A stretch of 64,000 nt of DNA, taken from contig JANJGN010000034.1 in the NCBI GenBank assembly GCA_026770705.1, positions 6,820,001 to 6,884,000 on the forward strand, written 5' to 3'. Below, in pieces: positions 18,001-45,000 of the stretch. The position numbers are program-made. Every line of letters begins with the position of its first letter. Positions within the stretch are counted from its first letter, which is position 1. This stretch comes from Isurus oxyrinchus (Eukaryota).

Positions 18001-21000
18001 TTGTGTACAATCAGAAAGTTAAGAAGGAATGGAACTGGATGCATCACCCATTATTGAAAAAGTCACCGGATACGATAATGGCAAACTCAATCGAGTCAAC
18101 ACTTCAAGATCCTCCTTTCTAACATCTGAGGCCGAAAGCAAATCTTGAGAGACCTTTCTCGCAGACTGGTTAAGCAACGGCCTGACATAGTTGCACTCGC
18201 AGCATCGTACACAGGAGACAATCTCCCAGGCACCAACATCACCATCCGTGGGCATGCCCTGTGCCACCGTCCGGACGGACTGAGCAGAGGTGAGCACCGT
18301 AATATACAGTTTTTAGGCAATTGCCTAGGGGGCCCTCAACACCCACTCCAGACCACCTGAATTTGCACACTGTCAGGTTAAATATTGGCAAGGAAATCGC
18401 CCGCTGATAACCACGTTATGCCCTCCCTTTCATACTAAACCATCACTTTTCCATCTTGAACATGACATGGAGGAAACAACGAGGCTGGCAGTGACACGGA
18501 ATGAGCTCTGGATTGTTGACTTCAATGCCTATCAGCAATAGAGACTCGGTAACACTGCTGCAGACTGAGCAGGTGGAGTCCCAAAGAATATATCTGCAAG
18601 AGTTGTCTGTGGCAGGTGGTGAGGGAACCAAGAAAGGGGAAAAAGTCCAATTTGACAAGATATTCAGCAGCCTGCCAGCCGCAGATACAACTGTCCATGA
18701 AAATGTCGGTAGGAGTGACCATCACGCAGTTATTGGGGAGAGGAAGCCCCATCTTCACATTGGGGATATGGTGCATCGCGTCGTGTGGCACCAGCACCGA
18801 TGTTAAATGGGATTTATTTATAACTTACCTATCAACTAAAAACCGGGAGAACAGGAGGCTCATGGGACGTCAGCAGTAGCAGATTTGTGTTGAGCCACCA
18901 TTTGTAAACTCATGGCCCGACATATGTAGAACTCCCCCATTAATGCCATGGCAGATGATCAACCCTGTTTAAATGAAGACTGAAAGAGGGTCTGTCTGGA
19001 GATGCATCAGGCATACTTAAAAAGGAGGCATCCAATTGCTCAAACTACAACAGAAGGCTACTTTCCTCCCAAACAGCATACAAATCAATACGTCGACATT
19101 ATTAAGCAATTCAATGACATACAGATCAAATTTACCCTCTACAGTACGGCCAGATCAATTCGTCAATGCTGGTGGACAATTGAGGAACTTACAGGAGGGA
19201 GAGTCTCCATGAGTCACTCAGCTCCCGACCTCATCACAGCTTCTCTTTCAAAATAGGCAAAAGAGATGAACTCAATGATGTGAGAGTGACTGCTCTTGAT
19301 GTCGTCAGTGCTTGGCCGAGTGCAACATCAAGAATCCCTAACAAAATTGGACCAATGAGAATCGGTGGTCGGGGGTGGGGGGGGAGGTGGGGGACCTCCA
19401 CTCTTTGTAGCAATACCTGTCAGAAAAGGAAGATGGCTGTAGTTGCTGGAAATTAATAACTTCAACAGCAGGACATCACGAAAAGTGATCCTCGGGTTAG
19501 TACCCCAGGACCAACCATTTTCCGTTGCTTCATCAATGCTCTTCCTTCCATCATAAGGTTAGAAATGGCGACCTTCGCTTACAATTGCACGCATATCAGC
19601 AGTGTTTGGATCTCCTCAAAGATTGACGTTGTCCAGGTTGAAATGCAGCACGAAATGGAAATTATCAATGCTTGGAGTAACCAGTGGAAAGTAATGTTCT
19701 TGCCACGCATGTGCCGGGCAATGACCATCTCCAGCAAGACAGAATCTAACCATCTCCGCTTGAATTTCATAGGCATTGCTATTGGTATGTCCACCACAAT
19801 CAACATCCTGGGGCTACCATAGGCCAATAACTGAATGGGACTAGCCATATCAATACTCCAAGATCAGGTCAGTGTGTAGAAACCCTGAGGTGGGTAATTC
19901 ACCTCTTGTCTCCCAAAGTCTGTCCAACATCTACAAGATACAATTAGGTGCCTGATGGAATAGTCTCCATTTGCCTCGATAAGTGTAGCTCCAACTGTGC
20001 TAAAAGAAGCTGGAGGCCATCCAGGGCAAAGCTGCCTGCTTGATTGCCACCTCATCCAGCAGCATATACTCCCTCCACCACCGACGCTCAGTTGCAGCAG
20101 CGAATACCAATGCAAGACGCACTGCAAGAACCCCCAAGCCTCCTTGAACAGCATCTTGCAAACCCACGAACATTACCATCTAGAAGAGCAAGGGCCGCAG
20201 AGGATGGTTCTGTTGCAAATGCGAAATTGTTTGGCACTATTTTGGAACAGAATAAGCCATTAAATCCCAAAAATGTTCAGCTTTTTCCACGAGGTCATGA
20301 ATGGTCTGTGTCCTTAACAATAGTTAAGAATATGTGACCATGCATGTTATCTTTAGATAACAAAACCTTTCATTTTAAATGTTTTTCAAGTTAATTTAAA
20401 ACAAACCAGACAATTGCTTATGCAAGACGTTTCACCATTGTGCTGATGATAAAATTAGAATGATATGATTGTGTTGATGAAAGAATAGGCAATGAAAATT
20501 ACTGTGGCTTTCCAAAATATCAGTGAAAAGAGCGATATCGATAAATTGTGATGGGAATTGTTATGGCGATGTTAGGCATGTTAATGAATAGAATGATGAG
20601 CATTTTCGTTATCCGTATCTTCATAATTCTATTCACAATAACAAAACTTTGCTTTATTTAATTGACAAAGAAAATGTTCTAATACAGAAAATCATTTAAC
20701 ATTCAGCCTCAGATGTAATTGCAAACCTGGGTGCGGGAAATGAGCTGTTCCTGTGATCAGAATATCTGGGTTGTATTAATGGTTTCGTTCTGTCTCATTT
20801 CAGAGCTGGATAATGCCAAGAAAGCTTCAGATGGCTCAGGTTATCATGCATTAAATGTTAATGGAAAGGAAAATAGCCTTGTCCAATGTTGCTCAATCTG
20901 AATTATAACTGGGTTAACATTCATAAGTTTTTGTTGATGCCGATGCAAATTACTTTTGGGCTGGGCATATAAATTATCCCCTTTACTCTCTTGCCCAAAG

Positions 21001-42000: not shown

Positions 42001-45000
42001 CGAAATAAAAACCAGAGATTGCTGATACAAACCAAAACTCAGCAATCTTGTAGTATCTGTGGAGTTCGAATGGGAATGAAAGCTTCCAATACAACATGCT
42101 CCTTCGGAACTGAAGGGAGGTATAAATCTTGTGTCTATTATGCTGTTGTTAGCGGAAGAAGTAAGTAGAGCCAAAGATGTGTGCATTATGTTGGAGGGCG
42201 GGAATAGATCAACAACGAGCGGGCATGCAACAAAAGCGAAAGGGAGTGTAGAAACAAAACATTCAGCCCGAGTGGTTGTGCATAGTTAAATAATAAATAA
42301 ATCCCATAGTATTTCTAAAATTTAGGGATGAGTTACTATAAATTAAGGATCAGTTCTGAATCAACGGATAGAGGTGAAATTGGTGAAGGTTTGCAGCCAC
42401 ACGGCAATTGGCACAACTATTTATGGAAATAAGCCGTTGTGTACCTCATAAGATGATCTGAATGGAAAAGAATGGTGGGAAAATGGACGATCGGAAAAAG
42501 AAAACTTCCAGCATAGAATGACAGCCACATCAAAATTCAGTGGTGAATATCTCAGGGAAATGGGATAAAGTTGTGAAAGCAGCAAGCAGTTACAATCACC
42601 GAGGTGGACATTGCTTCCAGGTAATGCAACCGCATAATGGAAGATACGCCATGGATTATTATCCGTCCTGGTCAACATCAATTGTCAGCATAAATTGGTG
42701 CATAATTTCATTATGTTTTTGGAACATTGTTGTGCGTATATTGTGTGCCCAATTTTATCATTACAATAGTGAGTGAGATTCGAACTCAATTCATTAACTG
42801 TTAATTATTTTGAGAAACAGACTCTATAAATGTCAGTTAAACCATTCGACCTTAGAACAATGGAAAACACTTATTTTCGCAAAAGTGGAGAGAGTCATGT
42901 GAATTTCGTGAATTCTGTCGAAATAAAATAGTTGCTCTTTCGGTCTTGCAGAACACAATAAATGCCAAGAAACTTTGAAAGATTTAGGTAAGAAAAGCGT
43001 ACTTTTCAATACCAACCTCTTACAGAGCTAATCGCAAATTAGAGCCGCTAAAAATTAGTGACTAAATGTTCTTCTGTTGCAAATAGAACAGCAACATCCA
43101 AACTTTGTGTAGTGGTCAGGAACACAGGAACTTAAGAGAAGTAGCAGGCCATCCAAGCCATCGAGGCTGCTGTGCCTTCAAGTGAACATGGCGGATAGAC
43201 CAAGTCAAAGCCAGTTTGCCGCTCTATCCCCGTATCCCTTGATGCCATTAATGTCCAGAAATCAATCAATCTCTGTCCTAACCATACTACATGACTGAGC
43301 TTACACAACCCCTGTGGCAGAAAATTCAAAGATTCTCAAACTTATGAGTAAAGAAATATGTTCTCACCTCAATCCTAATTGGCTTTCTTTCTGACTCTCA
43401 AAACATGTCTACTGGCTCCAGATCGTATCTTATCTACCTAGTACCTTAAAAATCCTTTTTTATTAATTAAATCACCTCTCATTCGTTTCCACACTGCAAT
43501 ATCTCTCCTCATAGGACATTCCCGCCATTCCAAGAATTAATCTGGTGAACCTCGGCTGCACTATCTCAATGAGAAGTACATTTTCCCTTTGGAAAGGCGG
43601 CCAAAGCTGTGTACCTTATTGCAGGTGCAACTGAACAAACGTTCCATGCAATTGAAGTATAACATTCCCTTGAGATAAAGAACAACAAACTACTGGCTTT
43701 CCTAATTACACATCGAGCCTGCGTGTCAATTTTCAGTGACGTATGAACAGGGACATCCACAACACATTGGACATCAGCAGTTCCCAATATATCACGACTT
43801 AAAAAAATACTTTGCCCTTCCGTTCCTCGTAACAAAGTGGATAACCTCTCACAACTTCCCACATTATACTATATCTGCTCAATTCTTCCCCACTCACTAA
43901 GCCTGTCTAAATCCTCTGGAATCCTCTTTGTATCCTCCTCTCAACAAAATTCCCACCTAAGTTTATCTCAGCTGAAAATGTGAAAATATTGCAGCCCATA
44001 TCCACATACAGACCACTGATCTCGACTTTGAATAGTCGGGTCCCAAGCATGGATAATCTCAGTACCCCATTAGTCGCAACATCCAACATGAAAGTTACTC
44101 ATTTATTCTTTCTCTTTGTTTTCTGTCCGTTAATAAATCCATATTGCATGCAAAATTGTTACTCACCTATCTCTTGGTATCTGATTTTGCTTACTTTCCT
44201 GGGTCGGGAATCTGAAAATCCAAAATTACCGCAGTCATGGTCTCCCGCCTTTAGAATAGAATATAATGCTTTATGTTTCACGGCAGAATACTGCCTTCGC
44301 TCTTTTCTCTCTCCCTCCCTTCTTAAATAGTGCACTTATATTTGCAACTTACCAAACTGAAGGAACTATTCCATAAATTAGACAATTTTAATTGATGATC
44401 AGGTAGGCATCCGATTTCTAGAAATCCACCTGTTTTAACGTTCAGTGATGTCGATCATCCATCAAGGGGGTATTTATAATCTTCCTCTCACATTGACTTC
44501 TACAGTGCTATTTTTTTTTCGAATGCTGACGTTTTTCACATCCTCATTCCCACATGTTTCTTGCCCTTCTGTTATTTCCAGAATGTTTTTTGCATCATCC
44601 TCCAGGAAGGCAGACACCAATAAATAATTTAGCTTCGCTGTCATTTCCCTATTCTTCCTTTTAAATTCTCCTCAGTCAACGTCTAAACTATACACATTTT
44701 TCGAGGAAGATCTTTATTTTTTTTTACATACCCCTAGAAGGTTTTGCTGTCCGTGTTTATCTTTCTTGCTCGTTAATATTCATATTGAATTCTAAAATTC
44801 TTTATCGGTTTCTTGGTCCCCCTTCTCGGTATTCTAAAATTCTCCCAAACCTCAGTTTTACTACATTTTTTGGAACATTTGTAAACACCCTCTTTTGACC
44901 TAATGCATTTTCGCATTCCATCGTGACAGCTGTTTAATCACTTTGACTGCTGCTTTTTTTGTGCCATAATGGAATTTAAATTTGTTCCAAAACAAAGAAT

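What the first reader, a model, noticed from the sequence alone, without database searches (positions are those of the whole stretch)
20205..44200. Coiled-coil length extended by ~8.4-kb tandem duplications carrying one 63-nt exon pair
Seen: three collinear units start at ~20205, ~28620 and ~37020. Units 1 and 2 each contain one 36-nt and one 27-nt exon (or pseudo-exon) among shared TE fossils, so under 1% of each unit is coding. Inference: unequal crossing-over adds three heptads per step without breaking frame or register. Exons A-C look like older rounds whose introns no longer align by eye. Unit copy number may vary between individuals or species.
Basis: partly seen in the sequence, partly recalled or inferred. 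Interest (0 to 1): 0.65.

Follow-up and report, generated by a model that had tools for sequence, protein, structure and literature searches.

The report
Old tandem triplication carrying heptad micro-exons
An ancient three-copy tandem repeat of about 8.4 kb carries tiny in-frame exon-like pieces with a coiled-coil pattern, an ordinary kind of exon amplification whose expression remains unproven.

Summary
The three collinear + strand units are real: they start at 20204, 28612 and 37019. They are old, not recent. K2P distance is 0.37 for U1-U2 and 0.46-0.48 to U3, and the longest identical run between units is 17-24 nt.

The units sit inside a longer + strand series of exon-like elements of exactly 36 and 27 nt, running from 11.1 to 60.3 kb. 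All have a pyrimidine tract plus AG and an open frame in intron phase 1-1; three copies have lost the GT donor or the frame.

Hydrophobic residues fall on heptad a/d positions: 32 of 40 against 15 of 85 elsewhere. One copy outside the units (59967-60002) matches the unit exon only across the exon and its splice sites (E 2e-5).

Each unit carries up to two 63-nt pairs, not one. U2 has lost one donor. U3 keeps only one intact element.

No transcript or protein evidence exists, and the gene is unidentified. Verdict: a real but ancient intragenic tandem duplication of symmetric micro-exons, a new member of a known kind. Present-day lengthening of the coiled coil and copy-number variation are unsupported.

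The parts
20204..28611 (+). Unit 1 of the tandem triplication (8408 nt)
   Evidence: collinear with unit 2 at 71.5% identity over 6744 aligned columns. Relative to U2 it lacks about 1.2 kb after 26750 and has 733+162 nt of its own at 27544-28459.
28612..37018 (+). Unit 2 (8407 nt)
   Evidence: offset about 8.4 kb from U1. K2P to U1 is 0.367 and to U3 0.483.
37019..44146 (+). Unit 3, truncated and the most diverged copy
   Evidence: 37019-37226 matches the unit start. An 890-nt stretch (U1 20403-21292) is absent. The match to U2 ends at 44146 (= U2 35362), and the tail segment with the 27-nt element is missing.
11142..11168 (+).
   Evidence: profile of three 27-nt copies hits it at E 3.9e-4. 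It has a pyrimidine tract plus CAG, a GTAAAT donor, and an open phase 1-1 frame.
13566..13594 (+). Possible decayed 36-class copy (29 nt, would break the frame)
   Evidence: weak profile hit (E 0.62). It shares five consecutive residues with the U1 36-nt element, but its length is not a multiple of 3.
14618..14653 (+). 36-nt exon-like element upstream (probably exon B); peptide LEVAKASLKET
   Evidence: T-rich tract plus CAG, GTGAGG donor, phase 1-1. It aligns ungapped with the other 36-nt elements. In leave-one-out it is the top non-training hit, but only at E 0.14.
16931..16957 (+). 27-nt exon-like element upstream (probably exon C); peptide DQLDVCQK
   Evidence: blastn to 11121-11171 at E 0.049. 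A profile of the two upstream copies finds the U1 copy at E 0.017. Donor is GTATGC.
20804..20839 (+). U1 first 36-nt element (36a); peptide LDNAKKASDGS
   Evidence: 32 of 36 identical to the U2 copy (96th percentile of 4983 windows). Strong acceptor, weak GTTATC donor.
21406..21432 (+). U1 first 27-nt element (27b); peptide INVFEKLK; weak splice signals
   Evidence: one of the two most conserved 36-nt windows of the three-way alignment. 25 of 27 identical to U2 (99.7th percentile). Frame open in all three units. Acceptor and donor score poorly on my approximate matrices.
26154..26189 (+). U1 second 36-nt element (36C); peptide LKECKDSLKLL
   Evidence: of 23 candidates in this segment, the only one that keeps AG, GT and the open frame in all three units. 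Its acceptor plus 5' part ties for the most conserved 36-nt window of 3239.
26898..26924 (+). U1 second 27-nt element (27d); peptide DKLNRCLD
   Evidence: strongest acceptor score among the phase 1-1 candidates listed (11.6). GTAAAA donor. 23 of 27 identical to U2.
29261..29296 (+). U2 36a; peptide LDNAKKASGGS (an alternative GT at 29288 would give a 27-nt form)
29866..29892 (+). U2 27b; peptide INVLEKLK
34200..34235 (+). U2 36C; peptide LKECKEYFKNL
36179..36205 (+). U2 27d pseudo-exon (frame open, donor dinucleotide is TT); peptide EKLSLCLD
37336..37362 (+). U3 27b copy (frame open, donor dinucleotide is GG)
42952..42987 (+). U3 36C, the best splice signals of the three copies; peptide HNKCQETLKDL
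   Evidence: acceptor 5.3 and donor 4.7 on my approximate matrices; CAG and GTAAGA.
55071..55097 (+). Possible 27-nt element; peptide NKLKLKED
   Evidence: correct length, phase and splice dinucleotides, but no nucleotide-level support (not found by any profile).
59967..60002 (+). 36-nt exon-like element outside the units (E4); peptide LVACNKSLQDF
   Evidence: matched by a profile of the three unit copies at E 2.4e-6 (leave-one-out 1.9e-5 to 3e-5). Similarity is confined to 59961-60019, the exon plus its splice sites.
60291..60317 (+). Possible 27-nt partner of E4; peptide EKMVSKDC
   Evidence: CAG acceptor, GTAATA donor, phase 1-1, 288 nt after E4. No profile support.
18099..20220 (+). Dispersed repeat abutting the left edge of the array
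   Evidence: copies at 45635-49432 (both orientations), 57907-59267, 60934-61552 and 63124-63747 (-).
43162..44200 (+). TE fossil shared by the units (U2 copy 34549-35362; cut at 26750 in U1)
   Evidence: It contains my first, rejected 27-nt candidates at 26523-26549, 34564-34590 and 43321-43347.

Best explanation
The window lies inside a + strand gene, not identified, whose local coding sequence is a chain of symmetric (phase 1-1) micro-exons alternating between 36 and 27 nt. One 36+27 pair encodes 21 residues with hydrophobic or cysteine residues at heptad a/d positions, that is three heptads of an alpha-helical coiled coil.

An 8.4-kb block holding two such pairs was duplicated in tandem twice. 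The first event separated U3 from the ancestor of U1 and U2; the second separated U1 from U2. Because every exon is a multiple of three in the same phase, and each pair is a multiple of seven codons, each new block could be spliced in without breaking frame or register.

The events are ancient and the copies have since decayed unevenly. U1 keeps four intact-looking elements, U2 three, and U3 one.

Shown: the triplication, its age order, the exon-like anatomy, the heptad pattern, and the excess conservation. Inferred: that the elements are or were spliced, that the product is a coiled coil, and that the mechanism was unequal crossing-over or a replication-based duplication.
For: - Collinear units at 64-73% identity. 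K2P is 0.367 for U1-U2, 0.463 for U1-U3 and 0.483 for U2-U3.
- Seven 36-nt elements align without gaps, each with a pyrimidine tract, YAG and GT. Four 27-nt elements likewise, one with its donor lost.
- All listed elements lie on the + strand.
- Strand and chance control with a filter chosen after seeing the data: 5 (36-nt) and 3 (27-nt) pass on the + strand, against 1 and 0 on the - strand. One of the five 36-nt passes, at 51422, is not one of the listed elements. The mean is 0.4 and 0.5 in 100 Markov-1 random windows.
- 59967-60002 matches the unit exon at E 2e-5 to 3e-5, with similarity limited to exon plus splice sites.
- Hydrophobic residues fall at a/d in 32 of 40 positions against 15 of 85 elsewhere (Fisher 2e-11). 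With one copy per lineage the counts are 19 of 22 against 8 of 46 (6e-8). Register 0 scores 32 of 40; the best of the six other registers scores 19 of 33.
- Of 23 AG|27 or 36|GT phase-1 candidates in U1 21250-26800, only 26154-26189 keeps AG, GT and the frame in all three units.
- The two most conserved 36-nt windows of 3239 in the three-way alignment fall on 36C and 27b.
- U1-U2 exon identity is 109 of 126 against 0.712 background (P 3.9e-5). It is 84 of 99 (P 0.0012) without 27b.
- No element ends in T, so no split codon can form a stop with the AA, AG or GA starts of the next element.
Against: - No transcript evidence was available.
- Two protein searches, with the in-frame ORFs that hold the 59967 and 14618 elements, found nothing. 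4 and 3 candidates shared words and none scored at E up to 10, but only proteins of 203-2000 and 106-2000 residues were searched.
- No Pfam domain in any of 148 ORFs of at least 75 aa on both strands. Among 150 of the 229 + strand ORFs of 45-74 aa there were only 8 sub-threshold hits.
- There is no excess of third-codon-position change: 0.44, 0.41 and 0.49 for the 36-nt class. Almost all U1-U2-U3 differences in 36C are non-synonymous (read).
- Apart from 59967, homology between lineages is not significant on its own (E 0.017 to 1.4). The two downstream 27-nt candidates have no profile support.
- Several splice sites score poorly on my approximate matrices, whose values are recalled and not from a tool. 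27b is the clearest case.
- Individually, the U1-U2 exon identities sit at only the 75th to 99.7th percentile.
Confidence: 0.6

Rival explanations
1. Relic reading. The triplication is real, but the micro-exon-like elements inside the units (and perhaps all of them) are dead pseudo-exons. They would be intronic or intergenic remains of an old repeat-built gene that contribute nothing to any present protein.
For: - Donor lost in U2 27d (TT) and in U3 27b (GG). An 890-nt deletion removed 36a from U3, and the tail with 27d is absent from U3.
- Weak donors occur in U1: GTAAAA, GTTATC and GTCCAA.
- Nearly all substitutions in 36C are non-synonymous.
- No protein in the database holds the two exon peptides tried.
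- No Pfam domain anywhere in the ORFs scanned.
Against: - Exon-like elements are more conserved than the rest of the unit and form the top conservation peaks.
- AG, GT and the open frame are kept in all three copies of 36C after K of about 0.4-0.5.
- The a/d positions are kept while other positions change.
- The 59967 copy has kept exon-only similarity although its introns have diverged beyond detection.
Confidence: 0.25
2. Substitution reading. The duplicated micro-exons are used as alternatives (mutually exclusive or cassette exons), so the duplications diversify the sequence of one coiled-coil segment rather than lengthen it.
For: - The 36C copies have equal length and phase and are homologous, but differ at most non-a/d positions. 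This is the anatomy of tandem duplicated exon substitution events as described in the abstract of PMC9741552 (seen in the search listing only).
- U3 and U2 lack an intact 27-nt partner. Including all 36C copies would shift the heptad register by 12 residues each.
Against: There is no direct evidence of splicing choice. The upstream and downstream series (27, 36, 27 ... 36, 27) looks like a continuous chain rather than a set of alternatives.
Confidence: 0.1
3. Chance or artefact reading. The units are independent TE matches or an assembly duplication, and the exon-like elements are chance ORFs in AT-rich sequence.
For: - Parts of each unit are TE fossils with copies elsewhere in the window.
- AT-rich DNA readily gives K/E/N/L-rich short ORFs.
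- Candidate exons with good splice scores are about as common on the - strand (12) as on the + strand (14).
Against: - Collinearity holds over 6-8 kb, including sequence with no other copy in the window.
- 28-36% divergence between the units excludes an assembly duplicate.
- The class-specific strand asymmetry and the random controls argue against chance.
- So do the exon-only match at 59967 and the heptad statistics.
Confidence: 0.05

Closest known systems
Tandem exon duplication by intragenic segmental duplication (general phenomenon; human tandem duplicated exon events reviewed in PMC9741552, abstract seen in listing only)
   Same: Adjacent, same-strand, homologous exons of equal length and phase. 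They were created by duplication of a genomic block that includes the flanking intron. Most such events are ancient.
   Different: Here the block is large (8.4 kb), carries up to four micro-exons, and at most 1.5% of it is coding. The copies have decayed unevenly. Whether they are used in series or as alternatives is unknown.
CD23 (FCER2) stalk: heptad-repeat coiled-coil neck of a type II C-type lectin receptor
   Same: An alpha-helical coiled-coil stalk with a heptad pattern of hydrophobic residues (PMC6791321, passages read). From my own recollection, not verified by any search: the stalk is built of 21-residue repeats, each encoded by its own 63-bp exon, and the number of repeats differs between human and mouse.
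   Different: Here the 21 residues are split over two exons (36+27). Cysteine occupies d positions. No C-type lectin domain or any other Pfam domain was found in the window. No sequence relation to CD23 was or could be tested, because the exons are too short to search singly.
Collagen-type genes with exons of 27, 36, 45 and 54 nt that begin with split codons (recalled knowledge)
   Same: Exon sizes are multiples of 9 nt (27 and 36), the phase is symmetric, and the repeat-built structural protein grew by exon amplification.
   Different: No Gly-X-Y periodicity in any of the 13 peptides. The periodicity is heptad, not triplet.

Membership tests
Intragenic tandem (segmental) duplication carrying exons | Two or more adjacent, same-orientation, collinear copies of one block | tested here: met
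   three units starting at 20204, 28612 and 37019.
Intragenic tandem (segmental) duplication carrying exons | The copies contain exons of a gene (spliced in transcripts) | not testable with these tools
   Exon-like anatomy and excess conservation were shown, but no transcript data were available and there was no protein hit.
Intragenic tandem (segmental) duplication carrying exons | Duplicated exons are symmetric, so added copies stay in frame | tested here: met
   all elements are 2 nt + whole codons + 1 nt, with lengths of 36 or 27 nt.
Alpha-helical coiled coil (heptad repeat) | Hydrophobic residues at a and d of a 7-residue period, continuous across modules | tested here: met
   32 of 40 a/d positions are hydrophobic against 15 of 85 others. 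The register is continuous only over a 36+27 pair. 36a has Gly/Ser in its second half.
Alpha-helical coiled coil (heptad repeat) | Predicted or solved helical oligomer | not tested
   Single exons are too short for the structure tools.
CD23-like stalk of a type II C-type lectin receptor | C-type lectin domain in the same gene | tested here: not met
   No Lectin_C or any other Pfam hit in 148 ORFs of at least 75 aa or in 150 of the 229 + strand ORFs of 45-74 aa. The gene may extend beyond the window, so the absence holds for the window only.
CD23-like stalk of a type II C-type lectin receptor | Each 21-residue repeat encoded by one 63-bp exon (recalled, not verified) | tested here: not met
   Here the 21 residues are split into 36 + 27 nt.
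Collagen-like exon family | Gly-X-Y triplet repeat in the exons | tested here: not met
   none of the 13 peptides has Gly at every third position.
Mutually exclusive tandem duplicated exons | Homologous adjacent exons of the same length and phase | tested here: met
   the three 36C copies.
Mutually exclusive tandem duplicated exons | Only one copy is included per transcript | not testable with these tools
   No transcript data.

The most novel reading that the evidence does not exclude
The window samples an undescribed, very long gene whose rod or stalk is built entirely of alternating 36-nt and 27-nt symmetric micro-exons. Each 21-residue module would be three heptads with cysteines at d positions that could staple a parallel coiled coil. 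The gene would have grown stepwise by multi-kilobase intronic tandem duplications, making it a modular length ruler with well under 2% coding density, missed or broken up by automatic annotation.
Probability: 0.2. Interest if true: 0.5.

Novelty: new member of a known kind. Interest (0 to 1): 0.3.

Why it matters
If the micro-exons are spliced, this is a clean natural example of how a coiled coil is lengthened in whole-heptad steps. Two properties guarantee frame and register: symmetric exon phase, and a pair length of 21 codons. The cost is kilobases of intron for each 21 residues.

It also shows what happens afterwards. Copies lose donors and partners, so the number of genomic units overstates the number of working modules.

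It is a caution for annotation as well. Exons of 27-36 nt, spaced kilobases apart among TE fossils, are easily missed. That may be why no protein in the database holds them.

It does not open a new question. Exon amplification in repeat-built proteins is well known.

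Tried and rejected
1. My first 27-nt candidates (26523-26549, 34564-34590, 43321-43347) are rejected.
   - They lie inside a dispersed TE fossil.
   - The U1 copy has two stops in the frame.
   - Splice scores are negative.
   - They are no more conserved than their flanks: 44th-74th percentile.

2. Pfam found nothing usable.
   - 148 ORFs of at least 75 aa on both strands gave 0 hits.
   - 150 of the 229 + strand ORFs of 45-74 aa gave 8 sub-threshold hits. The best was IL12p40_C at E 0.005, in a G-rich ORF at 1643-1777.
   - The other 79 + strand and all 231 - strand ORFs of that size were not scanned.

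3. Rfam and tRNA scans found nothing: gathering and E up to 0.1, and ARAGORN.

4. A generic exon scan with approximate splice matrices gave 14 candidates on the + strand and 12 on the - strand. That shows no strand signal and no coherent gene model.

5. Gene identification failed.
   - A single exon was too short (11 aa; the minimum is 40).
   - The in-frame ORFs containing the 59967 and 14618 elements gave no hit.

6. The two longest ORFs inside copies of the shared TE family are not related as proteins. They are chance ORFs.

7. Literature searches found no description of 36+27 exon pairs. These searches were narrow and do not show absence.
   - PMC2192194 returned no passage for my terms.

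8. TE-mediated recombination as the cause of the duplication is not supported. The repeat at the left edge (18099-20220) has no copy at the two internal junctions.

Full report
**Setting.** The window has no N, about 40% G+C, and roughly half the expected CpG. That looks vertebrate-like. I did not take the window for human and fetched no other contig.

**The units.**
- Self-blastn gave 11 collinear + strand HSPs of at least 150 nt linking three blocks, at 64-73% identity. The twelfth row was an unrelated inverted repeat at 56026-56737.
- Over the shared core, U1-U2 are 71.1% identical (K2P 0.367), U1-U3 65.6% (0.463) and U2-U3 64.6% (0.483).
- U3 therefore split first, and U1 and U2 split later.
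- The longest identical runs between units are 24, 17 and 22 nt.
- If the neutral rate were about 1-2 x 10^-9 per site per year (an assumed figure, not measured here), the two events would be roughly 90-240 million years old. This is not a young, recombining array, and an assembly duplicate is excluded.

**Differences between units.**
- U1 lacks about 1.2 kb that U2 has after 34791, and it carries about 0.9 kb of its own at 27544-28459.
- U3 lacks 890 nt corresponding to U1 20403-21292.
- U3 also stops matching at 44146 (= U2 35362), so it has no counterpart of the unit tail.
- Whether that tail was deleted from U3 or the array was cut by a later rearrangement cannot be told.

**Repeat fossils.**
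- One dispersed family occurs in the units at U2 34549-35362 and U3 43162-44200 (cut at 26750 in U1), with - strand copies at 21803-22393 and 37743-38407.
- The same family occurs outside the units at 256-1270, 11270-12118, 52007-52881 and 53811-54500.
- Another repeat abuts the left edge of the array (18099-20220). It recurs at 45635-49432, 57907-59267, 60934-61552 and 63124-63747, but not at the internal unit junctions.
- No ORF has a Pfam domain, and there is no tRNA or Rfam match.

**Finding the exons.**
- A scan for AG|36 or 27 nt|GT with an open frame, together with the unit alignment, first showed a 36-nt element in all three units: 26154-26189, 34200-34235 and 42952-42987. It has a conserved pyrimidine tract, a CAG or TAG acceptor and a GTAA donor.
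- My first 27-nt candidates, 370 nt downstream, turned out to lie inside the TE fossil, with stops and poor splice signals. I rejected them.
- A profile of the 36-nt element with its flanks then found a fourth copy far outside the units at 59967-60002 (E 2.4e-6). In leave-one-out the E-value is 1.9e-5 to 3e-5.
- That similarity is confined to 59961-60019, the exon and its splice sites. This is the pattern expected for an old paralogous exon under constraint, whose introns have diverged beyond detection.
- A phase-aware scan and further profiles added three more groups:
  - 14618-14653 (36 nt);
  - 20804-20839 and 29261-29296 (a second 36-nt element in U1 and U2);
  - the 27-nt class at 11142-11168, 16931-16957, 26898-26924 and 36179-36205.
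- All seven 36-nt elements align without a gap.
The U2 27-nt copy has TT in place of the donor GT, which fits 'or pseudo-exon'.

**A fourth element per unit.**
- The other top conservation peak of the three-way alignment falls on 21406-21432, 29866-29892 and 37336-37362.
- This is a 27-nt phase 1-1 open frame in all three units. It has AG in all three and GT in U1 and U2 (GG in U3).
- Its splice signals are weak on my matrices.
- If it is counted, the + strand shows an unbroken alternation:
  - 27, 36, 27 upstream of the units;
  - 36, 27, 36, 27 in U1;
  - 36, 27, 36, 27 in U2 (last donor lost);
  - 27 (donor lost), 36 in U3, where the first 36 was deleted and the last 27 is absent;
  - then possibly 27 (55071-55097), 36 (59967-60002) and 27 (60291-60317).
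- The two downstream 27-nt candidates have only the right length, phase and dinucleotides, with no profile support.

**Is this more than chance?**
- All elements are on the + strand.
- With a filter fixed after seeing the data (so only indicative), 5 and 3 candidates pass on the + strand, 1 and 0 on the - strand, and on average 0.4 and 0.5 in 100 random windows. One of the five 36-nt passes, at 51422, is not one of the listed elements.
- Of 23 AG|27 or 36|GT phase-1 candidates in U1 21250-26800, only 26154-26189 keeps AG, GT and the frame in all three units.
- Between U1 and U2 the four elements are identical at 109 of 126 positions, against 0.712 over 6618 other aligned columns (P 3.9e-5). 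Without the element that I noticed through its conservation, the figures are 84 of 99 (P 0.0012).
Single elements sit at the 75th to 99.7th percentile.

**Against coding.**
- Differences are not concentrated at third codon positions, and almost all changes in 36C alter the residue.
- Apart from 59967, the lineages are linked only by top-ranked but non-significant profile hits (E 0.017-1.4).

**Coiled-coil pattern.**
- I numbered the split codon 0, the 36-nt residues 1-11, the next split codon 12, and the 27-nt residues 13-20.
- Hydrophobic or cysteine residues then occupy positions 1, 4, 8, 11, 15 and 18.
- Over 13 elements, 32 of 40 a/d positions are hydrophobic against 15 of 85 others (Fisher 2e-11). 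With one copy per lineage the counts are 19 of 22 against 8 of 46 (6e-8).
- The best of the six other registers scores 19 of 33.
- The second codon position is the most conserved in the 36C and 27-nt classes. This fits conservation of residue type rather than identity.
- The register is continuous over a 36+27 pair (21 residues). The second half of 36a is Gly/Ser-rich and fits less well.
- I analysed this exon by exon.

**What the gene is.** Unknown.
- Single exons are below the 40-aa minimum of the protein search.
- The contiguous in-frame ORFs that contain the 59967 and 14618 elements found no protein. 4 and 3 candidates shared words and none scored at E up to 10. Only proteins of 203-2000 and 106-2000 residues were searched.
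- This is weak evidence that no annotated protein of that size holds these exons. A longer protein, or an unannotated gene, is not excluded.
- Phase 1-1 exons and repeated cysteines at d positions hint at an extracellular, disulfide-linked stalk. That is inference only.

**Comparison with what is known.**
- Tandem exon duplication is a well-known route for repeat-built proteins. The abstract of PMC9741552 (search listing only) describes ancient tandem duplicated exons used as mutually exclusive alternatives. That use is a live rival for these copies.
- CD23 has a heptad-repeat coiled-coil stalk (PMC6791321, passages read). That its 21-residue repeats are each one 63-bp exon, and vary in number between species, is my recollection. 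No call confirmed it, and PMC2192194 gave no passage.
- The 27- and 36-nt exon sizes recall collagen genes, but there is no Gly-X-Y periodicity.
- My four literature searches found no account of 36+27 pairs. They were narrow.

**Verdict.**
- It is wrong or unsupported in three respects:
  - the size of the step (up to six heptads per unit, not three);
  - recency and copy-number variation;
  - the assumption that every copy still works.
- It is a new member of a known kind, of modest interest. Expression data would settle it.

Noticed in passing
window 56026-56737: An inverted repeat: the stretch matches its own reverse complement at 77% identity over 745 aligned positions. It is probably a hairpin-like TE fossil or two head-to-head copies.
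   Followed up: no
window 26767-26805 and 35379-35441: A G-rich (GTGGGG)n microsatellite sits exactly where U1 lacks about 1.2 kb present in U2. A C-rich 19-21-nt tandem repeat sits at the end of the shared TE fossil in U2. Low-complexity tracts mark the indel boundaries.
   Followed up: no
window 33156-33713 (-) and 34615-35163 (+): These are the two longest ORFs of the window (186 and 183 aa), both in U2. They have no Pfam hit. The + strand one is not related as a protein to the 150-aa ORF in another copy of the same repeat family. They are most likely chance ORFs.
   Followed up: partly
window 18099-20220, 45635-49432, 57907-59267, 60934-61552, 63124-63747: A second dispersed repeat family has a copy ending within about 15 nt of the left edge of the tandem array, and several copies in both orientations to the right of it. 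It is absent from the internal unit junctions, so it is no evidence for TE-mediated recombination.
   Followed up: partly
window 13566-13594: A possible decayed copy of the 36-nt element lies between the upstream 27-nt and 36-nt elements. It shares five consecutive residues with the U1 copy, but it is 29 nt long and would break the frame.
   Followed up: partly
window 8594-8688 and 9615-9769: Two + strand candidates with good splice scores, of 95 and 155 nt, have phases (0 to 2, then 2 to 1) that would chain into the 27-nt element at 11142. They have no other support, could be chance, and were not searched.
   Followed up: no
window 1643-1777: A G-rich 45-aa ORF gave a sub-threshold Pfam hit to IL12p40_C (E 0.005, 17.7 bits against a cut-off of 25, one of 150 proteins scanned). 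I regard it as compositional noise.
   Followed up: yes
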